A stretch of DNA of 64,000 nucleotides from Escherichia coli (lineage in GTDB: Bacteria > Pseudomonadota > Gammaproteobacteria > Enterobacterales > Enterobacteriaceae): the NCBI RefSeq assembly GCF_041248615.1, contig NZ_CP158425.1; one strand, 5' to 3'. Positions 27,001 to 30,000 of the stretch are shown piece after piece. Made by a program: the position numbers. Positions within the stretch are counted from its first letter, which is position 1. Every line of letters begins with the position of its first letter.

Positions 27001-30000
27001 CATGGAAATTTACGGCCTGGAAAAGGAATTCATCCGGATGACTGTGCTGATCCATTTTCACGAGGTTCATCAATCTCAAGAGGCAGTTAGTTAACTGACG
27101 TGTCAGCCGGTAGGTAAGAAGTGTACTAATGTTCGTTTTTGTACGGTATACCGTCAGGTTAAATTCACCGGTCATACTATCCAGAGACAGATCTTTCAGA
27201 CGTATACGTCGAATTTCGGATGAACGGAGCAGTGTTTCAAAGCCTGTCCAGATCAGGCACAGGTCACGAAGTTTACGAACTGAGTTTGTAGTACTGCGTA
27301 ACTTTATCAGAGCCTTGAGATCGCCAATAAGAAAGGGAGTTGCCTGTTTAGTCGTCTTTCGCTTCCGGGCTTCCGATTGTTTTAAGGCTTCCAGCATGTA
27401 CCATGCTTCAGACGTAATAATCCCGGGCAGGTTAAGCCCTTTTTTATGGATACTATTTAAGGCCTGAAGACAGCTGTTTATGCTGCTTCGTGACAATTTG
27501 CCTTCAAGATGCCCCATAAACGCAAGCAGAGCGTCCTCAGACACGGGGAGCGAACTTACTGGCCAGTCTGTATGCAACCGGGCATTCGCCAGATACCATT
27601 CGTTCCATACTCGTAGCCAGTGCAGATAGGTTTTAGCAGTGTTGTATCTCAGATGGGAAAAGTAACGGATCAAGCGTGAAAGCTGTTTATCATGGTTGCC
27701 GAACGTTTCCAGCTGCTGATGCAATTCGCTTTCCGAAAACTGTCTGATCACTGATTGATTCTTCATCCTGCTCACCGGGATACACTGGTTTTAATTACAG
27801 GTCATTTTAGCACTCATGTACCTGGTTATGAACAGGGTGGAAACAACGAAAAAGGTTGTGAAATCGTTAGGCTTAAGTGAAAAATGATATTAAGATTATC
27901 CTTGGCCAGTTGAGGCCTGTCTAAAGAAGGTTGATTATGTCTGACACAAAGCAGTCTTATTTAATGAAATTCCGTAAGTGTAGTTCGTTCGAAACGCTCG
28001 AAAAAGTATTTGAAAGGTTATGTGAAAAAAACTCGGGTGTCGCCTCTCTTGAAATTTCTGGTGCTTATGATCATCGTAAAGCCGAACTGACAATGAAAAA
28101 GTTATATGACAAAGTTCCTGCGAGTGTGTGGACCTTTGTTCGCGAGTAATTATTAATATTGGCACAACAAAAAGACTGTGCCTGGATTTGAAAATAGTTT
28201 ATGCCCCTTTCGGGGCTAAAGGCATTGTAATAGCCTGTCTTTTAAAGTTGTTTATTAAGTTCGGAGAAAAACTTTAATCATAAGCCAAGCCCACTGCTAA
28301 ATACATCCGATATTCTCCTTCATTTTATTAGAAGTGATAAAAGTTACTTTACCTAAACTTCTCTCTCAATATTTGTAAGGCTCTCATTTGATTTTTGTCA
28401 AACATTAATCTGGAAGACGGAAAAATCATTTCTTTTAATACGTTTTACAGAAATCCTCCTCCGTTATTTCGGATATAGTTTGAATCATTATCAAAAACGG
28501 GGTGCAGCCATGCGTAAGAGTTATACATTTGGTATTCCATTTGGACTCCAGCGTGAATCAGGACTCTTTTTAGATATTACAGAGGTCAGCCGGGGTATTG
28601 ACTGTAACTGCATCTGCCCCGCTTGCAAAACTGATCTGTTAGCAAAGCAGGGGGAGGTCAAGCTTTGGCATTTCTCACACAGTACAGCTGTAGCCGGTGA
28701 CTGTGATGGTCTGATGGAAGCCATCCGGGGAAAGATTATTGAAGTCATCAACGAGCACCAGGTTCTTGGTTTCCCAAATCTTCTCGCTGGCGACGATGGT
28801 GGGCCGGTTTCACTGAATGAGGTTAGTGGAAGCGGCAGTATGTTCGGAGGCACAGCTGATCTGTTCGTAAAGGTTAATGATTTATGTGTGGCCGTCTTTC
28901 TGGACAGGGATCGCAGCATTTCAGAGAAGTTAACCTTTGACCATCTTCATCCTTCCGAAAGAGTTGCCGCATTGCGTATCGATCTTCCTGATATTGAATA
29001 TGAAATCAGTCAGGTGCAGCTCGGGCGACGTAAAACAACATACAGTGAGTGCATTGAAAGCCTGATCATTGATGAGACCAGTTCCCGGGAATGGCTATAT
29101 CATCCATTAATGCATGAACTTGAATCTGAACCTCTTCAGGAGTATCGGGGACGGGAGCCTTCAGAGGAAGGGCCTCTTCTTCAGCGCCTTGCTGACTGTA
29201 AGATGAAATTGCCTGATATCCTTCCGGGCAGTCATAACGCGCTAGTCAGGTTACAGCAGGATACGATTGTATGTCTGTGTCGGTTAACGGTTCGGGCTTA
29301 TGACATCGCTCAGACCGATGAATTTCCTTTGTTCCTTCGCTATTTCAGGTTGCACTGCCTGGAAAACAGCGAACATGTCAGTTACGAAAGACTGATCTGC
29401 TGGCAGGAAATGATTTCAAAAACCCAGGAAGGCCAGTCCTTGACACAAAACGAACTTGAATATCTTCATGAGATTGTCCGCATCGCCTTTTACAATCACC
29501 GGCTTAACAATGTCAGTATTTCAGATGTTAAAAACCATGACACTGGAAAGAAGAGCGGCAGGGTAGAGTCACAAAACTATTCACTTTTATAAATAACTTG
29601 GGCTTTGCGCATTAAACCCTTGCCGCAGGCGGTGTACCGCATATCCGGCACAGACAGTCAGTTTTTTCTGGCAGCTTAAATTTGACACTGCTTAATATAG
29701 TGATTCATTAAACAGGTTCAGTATGCTGCCAGAACGTTTTAGTCGTAATGGGCGTCCGTTAGTTTTCAACTAACTGAACGACGACCAGCCTGCCGCCTTC
29801 CTCCTTTGACAGAACAAACTGAGCGTTATTCGTCAGTTCAATTTTTTCCCCAATGGCAATCTGTCGTTTATCCGGTAATGACATAAGCCCATTTATGCCT
29901 TCATTTACTAACCACCACTGATCGTTATGGAAAACAAAATACCCAACTCGTTTCCTTTGTGCATCGGTTGTGCGCTCATTTGGCGCAATGAGGCGATTCA

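What the first reader, a model, noticed from the sequence alone, without database searches (positions are those of the whole stretch)
28510..29592. Stand-alone CoiA-like protein between the recombinase and the kinase/mcr-1 junction
The N-terminus CNCICPACKTDLLAKQGEVKLWHFSHS matches the recalled CoiA-family signature (Zn-finger CPxC followed by HFAH). CoiA-like proteins are nuclease-related and usually chromosomal competence genes; a plasmid copy with its own long AT-rich leader (28150-28509) is unusual and could function in DNA processing or defence.
Basis: partly seen in the sequence, partly recalled or inferred. Interest (0 to 1): 0.4.

Follow-up and report, generated by a model that had tools for sequence, protein, structure and literature searches.

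The report
IncHI plasmid CoiA-like zinc-finger protein
This is a real, strongly conserved backbone gene of IncHI resistance plasmids that encodes a distant relative of the competence nuclease CoiA with a remodelled, probably non-canonical active site; RefSeq already labels it 'CoiA family', it is not a competence gene, and its role on the plasmid is still unknown.

Summary

The gene is not an odd stand-alone plasmid copy. It is a core IncHI backbone gene found in 2810 plasmid records and in no phage record. It always lies just downstream of hha in a Tus-recombinase-hha module and is under strong purifying selection. Its R27 orthologue (probably R0176) can be deleted without loss of plasmid stability. 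It is expressed 5-fold more at 37 C than at 25 C, and it is the only gene that falls when conjugation is derepressed. RefSeq now names it 'competence protein CoiA family protein'. Verdict: partly supported, modest interest.

The parts
28510..29592 (+). ORF of 360 aa plus stop. It equals WP_001232449.1, the CoiA_N-domain protein of the IncHI2 backbone.
   Evidence: It is 100% identical in many IncHI2 plasmids. Purifying selection is strong: pN 0.16 against saturated pS 0.85 versus R27.
28510..28707 (+). Residues 1-66, the CoiA_N-type zinc-finger region. It comprises an IPFG beta-hairpin, CxCxCPxC, WHFxH and C65.
   Evidence: Pfam PF25164 matches at E 6.3e-8. hhalign to CoiA covers residues 11-70. 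C32, C34, C36, C39, H54, H57 and C65 are invariant in 7 orthologues down to 34% identity. In 128 superfamily members C34, C36, C39, H57 and C65 are invariant and C32 and H54 nearly so.
28603..28683 (+).
   Evidence: It can be read directly from the sequence. It is the stretch matched by CoiA_N, residues 33-59.
28708..29124 (+). Residues 67-205, the restriction-endonuclease-like (PD-(D/E)xK-fold) core with a non-canonical active-site region. D117 is in strand 2. F130 sits where relatives have the catalytic Glu. D132, D134 and R135 are specific to this clade.
29230..29544 (+). Residues 241-345, the clade-specific helical C-terminal domain with the conserved IAQTDEFPLFLRYFRLHC motif.
28150..28509 (+). 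AT-rich intergenic region between hha and the ORF, the 'leader' of the finding.
   Evidence: GC is 0.34. There is no Rfam match and no consensus sigma-70 site on the + strand of 28150-28509 at the scan's threshold. In other lineages it is only 85-190 nt long.
28474..28479 (+). A -10-like hexamer TATAGT inside the conserved box CGGATATAGT, 30 nt upstream of the ATG. It is the probable own promoter of the ORF.
   Evidence: The same box (TCGATATACTG or CGATATAGTG) sits at the same distance in R27 and in loci L017, L019 and L020. Its function is inferred and was not tested.
28339..28351 (.). One copy of the plasmid-wide palindrome AAAAGTWACTTTT (here AAAAGTTACTTTA).
   Evidence: The 12-mer gives 28 strand-matches in the window against 1.45 expected. 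The 13-mer gives 21 sites against 2.2 expected. A copy upstream of the ORF is conserved in R27, L017 and L019.
27937..28149 (+). hha-family gene, the conserved upstream partner of the ORF.
   Evidence: Pfam HHA matches at E 9e-19. It is adjacent and co-oriented with the ORF in IncHI2, Klebsiella IncHI1B and three metagenomic lineages. In R27 and p14ODMR it is separated from the ORF only by an IS1-flanked RepFIA insertion.
26585..27766 (-). Tyrosine recombinase, divergent from hha and part of the conserved module.
   Evidence: Pfam Phage_integrase matches at E 2e-13. Its synteny is shown.
24388..25368 (+). Tus-like replication-terminus-binding protein gene, the upstream end of the conserved module.
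   Evidence: The ORF is listed. It is annotated as a terminus site-binding protein or Pfam Ter in all lineages.

Best explanation
**Shown**
- The ORF is a core backbone gene of IncHI-type (MOBH/MPF_F) plasmids.
- It encodes a three-part protein. The first part is a CoiA_N-type zinc-finger region with eight invariant Cys/His. The second is a restriction-endonuclease-fold core homologous to a large superfamily of CoiA_N-plus-nuclease proteins. The third is a helical C-terminal domain found only in the plasmid clade.
- In this clade the residues that are invariant in the catalytically intact relatives and in CoiA are replaced: helix-1 Glu/His/Lys, strand-3 Glu and the following His. The strand-2 Asp is itself dispensable in some members.
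- The zinc ligands and a W195/H198/P199 motif are absolutely conserved.
- The gene always follows hha in a Tus / tyrosine-recombinase / hha module.

**Inferred**
- The protein most likely works as a zinc-dependent DNA-binding factor, probably recognising DNA structure at branched or ss/ds junctions, as CoiA does. It has probably lost or heavily remodelled CoiA-type phosphodiester cleavage.
- It probably acts on the plasmid's own DNA transactions in the non-transferring state, not in competence.

**Support from the R27 orthologue (73% identical, most likely ORF R0176)**
- It is dispensable for replication and stable inheritance.
- It is transcribed about 5-fold more at 37 C, when conjugation is off, than at 25 C.
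- It is the only R27 gene that goes down when conjugation is derepressed by an htdA mutation.

It is probably transcribed from its own promoter, with a conserved -10-like box 30 nt upstream of the ATG.
For: **Domain and family**
- Pfam CoiA_N passes its gathering threshold.
- hhalign to CoiA covers the finger plus the start of helix 1, at 94.9-95.3% probability.
- The IncHI clade matches catalytically intact relatives at 99.9% probability, E 3.7e-37, over 204 columns.
- The superfamily has 2369 representative clusters at E<=1e-3.

**Fold**
- AF2 models have pLDDT 91 and 93.

**Active site**
- Class-A relatives have E/H/K in helix 1, PD in strand 2 and ExxVTH..K in strand 3.
- The query has E70 (variable), G74, E78, D117, F130 and D134 at those positions.
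- D117 is Pro in P0010 and P0013. D132 is Asn and R135 is Thr in the Klebsiella orthologue.

**Constraint**
- pN is 0.16 against a saturated pS of 0.85 versus R27, and every domain is constrained.
- All eight Cys/His are invariant.

**Distribution and synteny**
- 2810 plasmid records carry it, no phage record does, and 407 of 5426 complete E. coli genomes do, almost all on plasmids.
- The Ter / recombinase / hha / ORF order is seen in six lineages.

**R27 data**
- Deletion 15 (150,566-156,499) removes the orthologue at 154,290-155,363 without loss of stability (PMC4853401).
- R0176 reads 154 units at 25 C and 807 at 37 C.
- It is the only gene down in the htdA mutant at 25 C, and it is down 7.4-fold at 37 C (PMC7366339).
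Against: - There is no biochemical evidence of any kind.
- Within the tight IncHI1/IncHI2 group, D66, D117, D132, D134, R135, H147, E150, R156 and D158 are invariant. They could form a relocated active site, and migration of catalytic residues is well documented in PD-(D/E)xK enzymes (established knowledge). Nuclease activity is therefore not excluded.
- I could not inspect model coordinates, so the geometry of the zinc sites and of the acidic residues is not checked.
- The core is acidic in IncHI1/HI2 (net -9 to -12), which is not typical of a DNA binder. The Klebsiella and P0013 orthologues are neutral.
- The equation R0176 = this orthologue is inferred. It rests on ORF order (the last ORF before insB) and on the opposite behaviour of R0175. 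A 121-aa ORF overlapping the 5' end is an alternative.
- The R27 stability test was done only in laboratory E. coli.
Confidence: 0.5

Rival explanations
1. It is an active structure-specific nuclease that works like CoiA, cleaving D-loops, flaps or ss/ds junctions. It would use a relocated active site (D117 with D132/D134 and R135 or R156) and process recombination or replication intermediates of the plasmid next to the Tus and recombinase genes.
For: - It is homologous to a superfamily whose class-A members keep a CoiA-like E/PD/E site.
- D117, D132, D134 and R135 are invariant in the nine sequences of alignment A1, which are at least 51% identical to the query, except that D117 is Pro in P0010.
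- CoiA itself has an 'atypical catalytic sequence' yet is an active D-loop resolvase (bioRxiv 10.1101/2024.02.06.579203).
- The genomic neighbours deal with replication termination and site-specific recombination.
Against: - The position that pairs with D117 across the strand-2/strand-3 hairpin is Phe/Tyr in every clade member.
- D117 is Pro in P0010 and P0013.
- D132, D134 and R135 are each lost in at least one orthologue that still keeps all the zinc ligands.
- The CoiA_nuc HMM does not match.
- Deleting the R27 region had no effect on stability.
Confidence: 0.3
2. It is a plasmid-borne defence or exclusion effector that attacks incoming phage or rival-plasmid DNA.
For: - Distant relatives are single genes in variable or defence-like islands, next to Abi_2 and an SNF2 helicase.
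- Another relative lies near Cap4, TIR and DruA, within a conserved three-gene cluster.
- P0013 sits beside a STAND-type NTPase and DUF6933.
- Weak finger-only similarity to DruB exists.
- Expression is highest when the plasmid is not transferring.
Against: - No PADLOC model matches beyond a spurious helical hit.
- The DruB similarity is confined to about 30 residues of the zinc finger, at E of about 0.01.
- The gene has a fixed syntenic position in the backbone next to hha/Tus/recombinase, not in a variable island.
- The catalytic residues are degenerate.
- No partner gene is conserved other than hha.
Confidence: 0.1
3. It is a sequence-specific DNA-binding regulator, a catalytically dead restriction-enzyme-like dimer. 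It would recognise the plasmid-wide palindrome AAAAGTWACTTTT, including the copy in its own upstream region, and help set the non-conjugative expression state together with Hha/H-NS.
For: - The palindrome is 10- to 20-fold over-represented in the window. It is also enriched in R27, in Klebsiella IncHI1B plasmids and in metagenomic relatives.
- A copy upstream of the ORF is conserved in four lineages, and a copy lies at the ORF start in the P0015 locus.
- Restriction-fold proteins typically read palindromes as dimers (established knowledge).
- R0176 regulation is the mirror image of the tra regulon.
Against: - Nothing links this protein, rather than any of the roughly 250 other plasmid proteins, to the palindrome.
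- Most copies lie inside coding regions, not in promoters.
- Three P0013 loci (about 42 kb of MOBF-type plasmids) carry a 44%-identical homologue but no copy of the palindrome.
- The Klebsiella leader lacks the site.
Confidence: 0.08
4. It is a decaying remnant or mis-called ORF with no function.
For: It is dispensable for R27 stability, and older annotations call it a hypothetical protein.
Against: - The ORF is intact over at least 80% of its length in 2495 of 2810 plasmid records.
- Non-synonymous divergence is 0.16 while synonymous sites are saturated.
- It is conserved at the same locus down to 34% identity.
- The confident AF2 fold has pLDDT 91.
- The R27 orthologue is transcribed and regulated.
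Confidence: 0.02

Closest known systems
CoiA (competence protein CoiA/YjbF of Streptococcus and Bacillus; Pfam CoiA_N + CoiA_nuc PF06054)
   Same: - It has the same N-terminal region: a beta-hairpin, CPxC, RQG, HFAH and a following conserved Cys.
- A helix then opens a restriction-endonuclease-fold domain.
- The overall order is the same: finger, then nuclease fold, then a C-terminal extension. bioRxiv 10.1101/2024.02.06.579203 describes that architecture for CoiA.
   Different: - There is no PF06054 match.
- The strand-3 catalytic Glu is replaced by Phe.
- It has two extra Cys (C32, C34) and an invariant H198, which suggests a second metal site (inference).
- It has an insertion of about 27 residues between strands 1 and 2.
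- The C-terminal domain is unrelated.
- It is encoded on enterobacterial IncHI plasmids next to hha, not in a Bacillota competence regulon. CoiA is reported as confined to Bacillota.
R27 ORF R0176 (IncHI1) and its RefSeq entry WP_001232452.1
   Same: It is the orthologue, 73% identical, with the same neighbours apart from an IS1/RepFIA insertion. The published expression and deletion data come from this gene.
   Different: It is not functionally characterised: the papers list it as of unknown function. The ORF-number assignment is my inference.
Uncharacterised CoiA_N-containing proteins of Proteobacteria (my 'class A' and 'class B'; some also hit Pfam DUF7828/DUF7830)
   Same: They are homologous over residues of about 9-210, at probability 99.9%. 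C34, C36, C39, H57, C65 and W195 are invariant, and C32, H54, P89, D117 and H198 are at least 90% conserved.
   Different: - Class A keeps the E/H/K, PD and ExxVTH..K residues. Class B has CESF / VD / YFTHGR and a C-terminal CxxC...CxxC ribbon.
- They are near-neutral to basic, with median pI 8.3-8.5 against 5.3 for this clade.
- They sit in variable islands.
- They lack the helical C-terminal domain.
YraN (UPF0102) and other minimal PD-(D/E)xK resolvases (Hjc, RecU-like)
   Different: They have no zinc finger, they have canonical catalytic residues, and they are much smaller. YraN is the diderm counterpart of CoiA in transformation. Nothing ties the plasmid protein to transformation.
DruB (Druantia type I) N-terminus
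   Same: Some relatives show a weak match to DruB profile positions of about 23-56, i.e. the same kind of zinc finger.
   Different: The match covers only about 30 residues at E 0.007-0.04. The query itself does not match, and there are no Druantia neighbours here.

Membership tests
CoiA (competence protein CoiA family) | N-terminal CoiA_N zinc-finger domain (PF25164) at or above the Pfam gathering score | tested here: met
   The score is 32.5 bits against a cut-off of 26.3, E 6.3e-8, over residues 33-59. hhalign to a CoiA-type sequence gives 94.9% probability over residues 11-70.
CoiA (competence protein CoiA family) | CoiA nuclease-like domain (PF06054, CoiA_nuc) detectable by HMM | tested here: not met
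   There is no hit even at E<=10, and none in 56 relatives at E<=0.01. A positive-control CoiA-type sequence scores E 1.6e-29. Profile-profile alignment to real CoiA stops after helix 1.
CoiA (competence protein CoiA family) | Catalytic Asp in strand 2 and Glu in strand 3 (the active-site signature given in bioRxiv 10.1101/2024.02.06.579203) | tested here: not met
   D117 is present here but is Pro in two clade members. The strand-3 position is F130, and Phe/Tyr in all clade members.
CoiA (competence protein CoiA family) | Chromosomal late-competence gene of Bacillota that is required for transformation | tested here: not met
   The context was tested. It is an enterobacterial IncHI plasmid backbone gene next to hha: 2810 plasmid records, and 431 plasmid against 17 chromosomal places in E. 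coli. A role in transformation cannot be tested with these tools.
PD-(D/E)xK (restriction-endonuclease-like) superfamily | The alpha-beta-beta-beta-alpha-beta core fold | tested here: met
PD-(D/E)xK (restriction-endonuclease-like) superfamily | A conserved metal-binding acidic pair plus Lys/Gln (an active enzyme) | tested here: inconclusive
   The canonical positions are not conserved. Clade-specific D132/D134/R135 could be a relocated site.
Known anti-phage defence systems (PADLOC-DB 2.0) | A significant match to a defence-protein model and presence of the system's partner genes | tested here: not met
   The only hit is a weak helical 'CorA-like' match, E 0.002, over residues 274-357. The neighbours are hha, a recombinase and the terY operon.
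IncHI plasmid backbone (Tus / recombinase / hha module) | Orthologue at the same syntenic position in independent IncHI lineages | tested here: met
   It was found in IncHI2, IncHI1 R27 and p14ODMR, Klebsiella IncHI1B/FIB, and three metagenomic lineages.

The most novel reading that the evidence does not exclude
The protein is a catalytically dead, restriction-enzyme-like zinc protein that IncHI plasmids have turned into a global DNA-binding factor. It would read the dispersed 13-bp palindrome AAAAGTWACTTTT, which has about 16-21 copies in this 64-kb window including one in its own upstream region. Together with the adjacent Hha it would help hold the plasmid in its non-conjugative state at 37 C. 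This would make it a KorB-like global regulator built from a CoiA-type nuclease scaffold.
Probability: 0.07. Interest if true: 0.65.

Novelty: new variant of a known kind. Interest (0 to 1): 0.3.

Why it matters
IncHI1, IncHI2 and IncHI1B plasmids are major carriers of mcr-1, mcr-9, carbapenemase genes and typhoid multidrug resistance, and most of their backbone genes have no known function.

This gene is one of the most conserved of those unknowns. It is fixed next to hha, and in R27 it is the one gene regulated opposite to the transfer genes. If it modulates plasmid DNA transactions or the switch between conjugative and vegetative states, it would be a handle on plasmid spread.

More generally, the CoiA zinc-finger/nuclease scaffold was recently shown to be a D-loop resolvase in Gram-positive transformation. 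This analysis shows it has a large uncharacterised radiation in Proteobacteria and their mobile elements, including lineages that seem to have given up the canonical catalytic site.

On the other hand, the basic 'CoiA-like' label is already in RefSeq, so the finding as written adds little.

Tried and rejected
**Structure and fold searches**
- The afdb50 fold library was not available.

**Sequence searches that found nothing useful**
- PDB sequence and profile searches found nothing relevant.
- NCBIfam gave no hit.
- PHROGs gave only noise.
- tblastn against phages gave no match.

**Weak hits rejected**
- The PADLOC 'CorA-like' hit (E 0.002, helical C-terminus) was judged spurious.
- The DruB lead was followed and found to be finger-only and weak.

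**Leader region**
- There is no Rfam family and no consensus sigma-70 site on the + strand of 28150-28509 at the scan's threshold.
- Leader sequence is poorly conserved between IncHI2 and R27 apart from two short boxes.

**Ideas tested and dropped**
- DNA mimic or acidic decoy: the IncHI1/HI2 proteins are acidic, but the Klebsiella and P0013 orthologues are neutral, so acidity is not a general property.
- TomB-like partner of Hha: there is no Pfam YbaJ/TomB match at E<=10.

**Literature**
- A search by RefSeq accession found nothing.
- A search on 'CoiA_N/DUF7828' terms was uninformative.
- A search for the palindrome sequence found nothing relevant.
- The original R27 record AF250878 is not in the collections, so R0176's coordinates could not be read directly.

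**Control sequence**
It proved only 83% identical to real CoiA proteins.
- I used it only after Pfam validated it, and replaced it with database CoiA sequences for the profile comparison.
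Full report
**1. The observation**

The ORF is real. ATG 28510 to TAA 29592 on the + strand encodes 360 aa. A TTG at 28480 could extend it by 10 codons. All orthologues begin MRKSYT and a GGGG Shine-Dalgarno-like run precedes the ATG, so 28510 is the start.

The quoted motif CNCICPACKTDLLAKQGEVKLWHFSHS is residues 32-58. The upstream 360 nt (28150-28509) is AT-rich, with GC 0.34 overall and 0.295 at its lowest, against 0.47-0.51 within the ORF.

The window is an IncHI2 plasmid backbone. The 1.9-kb region is at least 90% identical in 1208 plasmid records typed IncHI2A/MOBH/MPF_F. The downstream 'kinase' is the last gene of the terY / VWA / PP2C / kinase operon, and it is cut here by ISApl1-mcr-1.

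**2. Test of the CoiA interpretation**

Pfam gives exactly one hit: CoiA_N (PF25164), 32.5 bits against a gathering score of 26.3, E 6.3e-8, residues 33-59.

The match is confined to the zinc finger:
- The CoiA nuclease model PF06054 does not match at E<=10.
- It matches none of 56 relatives at E<=0.01.
- A CoiA-type control sequence scores 1.6e-29 on it.
- NCBIfam, PADLOC, PHROGs and PDB sequence searches give nothing useful.

**3. The family**

A word-indexed search found only 12 close clusters. An exhaustive HMMER scan of 1.84 billion representatives found 2369 clusters at E<=1e-3 and 181 at E<=1e-10. Most distant relatives are 250-350 aa and align over residues of about 9-210.

The conserved unit is therefore the finger plus the roughly 140-residue domain behind it. 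The last 150 residues are specific to the plasmid clade.

Across 128 members, G29, C34, C36, C39, H57, C65 and W195 are invariant. P10, F11, V26, C32, P37, L43, A45, G48, H54, F55, P89, D117, H198 and P199 are at least 90% conserved.

**4. Structure**

AlphaFold2 with this alignment gives a confident model:

| Model | pLDDT | pTM |
|---|---|---|
| Full length | 91 | 0.78 |
| Residues 1-211 | 93 | 0.90 |

The layout is as follows:
- Small beta-hairpins carry the Cys/His residues.
- Helix 67-83 comes next.
- A beta-sheet follows (strands 85-88, 114-122, 125-132, 152-158, 193-197) with helices packed against it.
- A poorly ordered linker follows, with pLDDT dipping to about 63 in block 211-220 and below 50 at residues 217-219.
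- Residues 242-345 form a helical bundle.

Foldseek gave the same kind of list with no significant E-value. It included the R2 retrotransposon endonuclease, which also pairs a zinc knuckle with this fold. I accept the fold class. No solved structure is close.

**5. Homology to real CoiA and the active site**

- hhalign of the superfamily profile against a CoiA-type sequence aligns residues 11-70 at 94.9% probability.
- A sub-alignment of 27 'class A' relatives aligns to a profile of genuine streptococcal CoiA proteins at 95.3%, E 2e-8. That alignment runs through the finger, the conserved Cys, and the start of helix 1 with its E-x-x-x-H...K.
- The IncHI clade aligns to class A at 99.9%, E 3.7e-37, over 204 columns, but to CoiA directly at only 48.6%.

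The protein is therefore a genuine, distant member of a CoiA-related superfamily.

The catalytic residues tell a different story. Class A has invariant or nearly invariant E, H and K in helix 1, PD in strand 2, E-x-x-V-T-H..D..K in strand 3, and an IEID strand. This is comparable to CoiA's D (strand 2) and E (strand 3), described in bioRxiv 10.1101/2024.02.06.579203.

In the query the aligned positions are E70 (variable in the clade), G74, E78, D117, F130 and D134. Further points:
- F130 is Phe/Tyr in every clade member.
- D117 is Pro in P0010 and P0013.
- D132 is Asn and R135 is Thr in the Klebsiella orthologue.
- D134 is Gly in P0013.
- All eight Cys/His, together with P89 and W195, are invariant down to 34% identity.

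The conserved property of the plasmid clade is the metal-bound scaffold, not a canonical nuclease site. The tight IncHI1/HI2 group does keep its own invariant D66, D117, D132, D134, R135, H147, E150, R156 and D158. A relocated site cannot be excluded without coordinates or biochemistry.

**6. It is a functional gene**

Against the R27 orthologue, non-synonymous divergence is 0.16 while synonymous sites are saturated (pS 0.85). All four segments of the protein are constrained. The ORF is intact over at least 80% of its length in 2495 of 2810 plasmid records.

**7. Distribution and context**

tblastn finds the protein in 2810 of 72,556 plasmid records:

| Identity band | Records | Plasmid type |
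|---|---|---|
| >=95% | about 1124 | IncHI2 |
| 60-80% | 291 | IncHI1, such as R27 and p14ODMR |
| <60% | 1389 | Mostly Klebsiella IncHI1B/IncFIB MOBH plasmids, 34% identity over 95% of the length |

No phage record carries it. In complete E. coli genomes it occurs in 407 of 5426, at 431 plasmid places against 17 chromosomal places.

The gene order is the same in six lineages: Tus-like (Pfam Ter), two small ORFs, tyrosine recombinase (-), hha (+), this ORF (+). These lineages are IncHI2, Klebsiella IncHI1B and three metagenomic lineages, plus R27 and p14ODMR, where an IS1-flanked RepFIA replicon has been inserted between hha and the ORF.

The hha-to-ORF gap is 85 nt in Klebsiella and 163-190 nt in the metagenomic lineages. 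The 360-nt gap in IncHI2 is the long extreme and is not a defining feature.

More distant relatives sit elsewhere:
- P0013, at 44% identity, lies on MOBF-type Salmonella/E. coli plasmids beside DUF6933 and a STAND-type NTPase.
- Relatives at 25-30% identity are single genes in variable or defence-like islands.

**8. Upstream region**

Rfam and the sigma-70 consensus scan found nothing in the leader on the + strand. Comparing lineages reveals two conserved boxes.
- One is a -10-like element: CGGATATAGT in IncHI2, with TATAGT at 28474-28479, and TCGATATACTG elsewhere. It lies about 30 nt before the ATG in five lineages.
- The other is the palindrome AAAAGT(A/T)ACTTT(T), at 28339-28351.

The first suggests the ORF has its own promoter close to the start, so the 'long leader' is upstream regulatory DNA and not a long 5' UTR (inference).

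The palindrome is not private to this gene. The 12-mer with up to one mismatch gives 28 strand-matches in the window against 1.45 +/- 1.36 expected, with a maximum of 5 in 100 shuffles. The 13-mer with up to two mismatches gives 21 sites against 2.2 expected, most of them inside coding regions. It is also enriched in R27, Klebsiella and metagenomic loci, with conserved copies inside tus and next to this ORF. I found no literature on it.

**9. Published data on the R27 orthologue**

WP_001232452.1 lies at R27 154,290-155,363, directly before IS1 (insB/insA = R0177/R0178). It falls inside deletion 15 (150,566-156,499) of Tassinari et al. 2016, PMC4853401. That deletion was obtained, and only deletion 16 reduced stability.

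In the R27 microarray study of Gibert et al. 2020 (PMC7366339), R0176 behaves as follows:
- It gives 154 units at 25 C and 807 at 37 C (-5.24). This is the largest such change among non-tra genes.
- hha (-2.47) and the recombinase R0183 (-2.36) change in the same direction.
- It is the only gene down-regulated in the derepressed htdA mutant at 25 C, where 139 of 181 expressed genes go up.
- It is down 7.4-fold in that mutant at 37 C.

I equate R0176 with the orthologue for two reasons. It is the last ORF before insB. R0175 behaves oppositely (+10.3 in the mutant), as expected for the convergent 168-aa ORF (PGAP CDS 153,557-154,033) and not for a co-transcribed overlapping ORF. A 121-aa ORF overlapping the 5' end is the alternative. 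I put this assignment at about 80%.

**10. What it most likely is and does**

Shown:
- It is a zinc-finger plus restriction-endonuclease-fold protein of the CoiA-related superfamily.
- It is a core gene of IncHI backbones, fixed next to hha.
- It is under strong purifying selection, and its canonical catalytic residues are replaced.

Inferred:
- It is a zinc-dependent DNA-binding factor, probably recognising DNA structure.
- It probably no longer performs canonical CoiA-type cleavage.
- It is active when the plasmid is in its non-transferring state.
- It is dispensable for basic maintenance in the laboratory.

Rivals:

| Rival | Confidence |
|---|---|
| Active nuclease with a relocated site | 0.3 |
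| Defence or exclusion effector | 0.1 |
| Sequence-specific regulator reading the palindrome | 0.08 |
| Non-functional remnant, effectively refuted | 0.02 |

**11. Novelty**

RefSeq's pipeline now names the identical protein 'competence protein CoiA family protein' in recent assemblies.

This analysis adds four things:
- The resemblance is limited to the finger and the fold.
- The catalytic site is degenerate in the plasmid clade.
- The gene belongs to a conserved Tus / recombinase / hha module.
- Published R27 data show regulation opposite to the transfer genes.

I rate it a new variant of a known kind, with modest interest (0.3). The side observation of a dispersed, conserved palindrome on IncHI backbones may be the more interesting lead.

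Noticed in passing
window 4866-59818 (for example 6249, 13380, 17125, 20696, 24888, 28339, 46083, 50675); also L016 (R27), L014/L015 (Klebsiella), L017-L019, L006/L007: A 13-bp palindrome AAAAGTWACTTTT is dispersed over the IncHI2 backbone. There are 21 sites with up to two mismatches against 2.2 expected, and 28 strand-matches of the 12-mer against 1.45 expected. Most copies lie inside coding regions. Copies inside the tus gene and next to the CoiA_N ORF are conserved across IncHI2, IncHI1, IncHI1B and metagenomic relatives. No literature was found, and its binder or function is unknown. It resembles dispersed KorB/ParB-type sites.
   Followed up: partly
window 29759-33622: ISApl1 (transposase 30800-31801) followed by mcr-1 (31997-33622) is inserted into the 5' part of the Ser/Thr-kinase gene of the terY / VWA / PP2C / kinase operon. 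That gene is 1500 bp in uninterrupted IncHI2 plasmids. The remaining 363-codon ORF begins in ISApl1-end sequence.
   Followed up: partly
L023 2935-7053; L024 542-4744; L025 642-4844: P0097, a relative with intact catalytic residues, is the last gene of a conserved cluster. The cluster comprises a 517-545 aa protein, a 450 aa protein, sometimes a 61 aa ORF, and the 350 aa CoiA_N protein, none with Pfam hits. It appears in three independent contigs. One of them is in a neighbourhood with a Cap4 nuclease, TIR_2, DruA, IS66 and an integrase. This is a possible uncharacterised multi-gene defence system.
   Followed up: no
L002 3974-9038; L003 249-5313; L005 322-5386: On Salmonella/E. coli plasmids the 44%-identical homologue P0013 is the last gene of a conserved block. 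The block comprises a serine resolvase, a 552 aa unknown protein, an AAA_16/STAND-type NTPase, DUF6933 and the CoiA_N protein. P0013 lacks the strand-2 Asp. No copy of the palindrome occurs in these loci.
   Followed up: no
window 28203-28216: A perfect GC-rich hairpin GCCCC-TTTC-GGGGC lies 54 nt after the hha stop codon, with dG about -14.8 kcal/mol in a 40-nt window. It has no T-tract after it. It is a possible hha terminator or processing site, and GC-rich hairpins also follow hha in L019 and L020.
   Followed up: partly
R27 (L016) 13558-15364, from PMC7366339 Table S4: The convergent neighbours R0175 and R0176 respond in opposite directions to the htdA mutation at 25 C (+10.3-fold against -2.45-fold). 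This hints at transcriptional interference or a shared switch between the two convergent genes.
   Followed up: no
window 24388-25368 against NZ_CP015833.1 56409-57053: The Tus-like ORF is intact in the window (326 aa). It is annotated as only 645 bp in the reference plasmid used for context, so that record probably has a frameshift or a mis-called start.
   Followed up: no
window 28521-28919 (- strand): A 132-codon antisense ORF lies entirely inside the CoiA_N gene. It is most likely a mechanical artefact of the ORF listing, and no evidence for it was sought.
   Followed up: no
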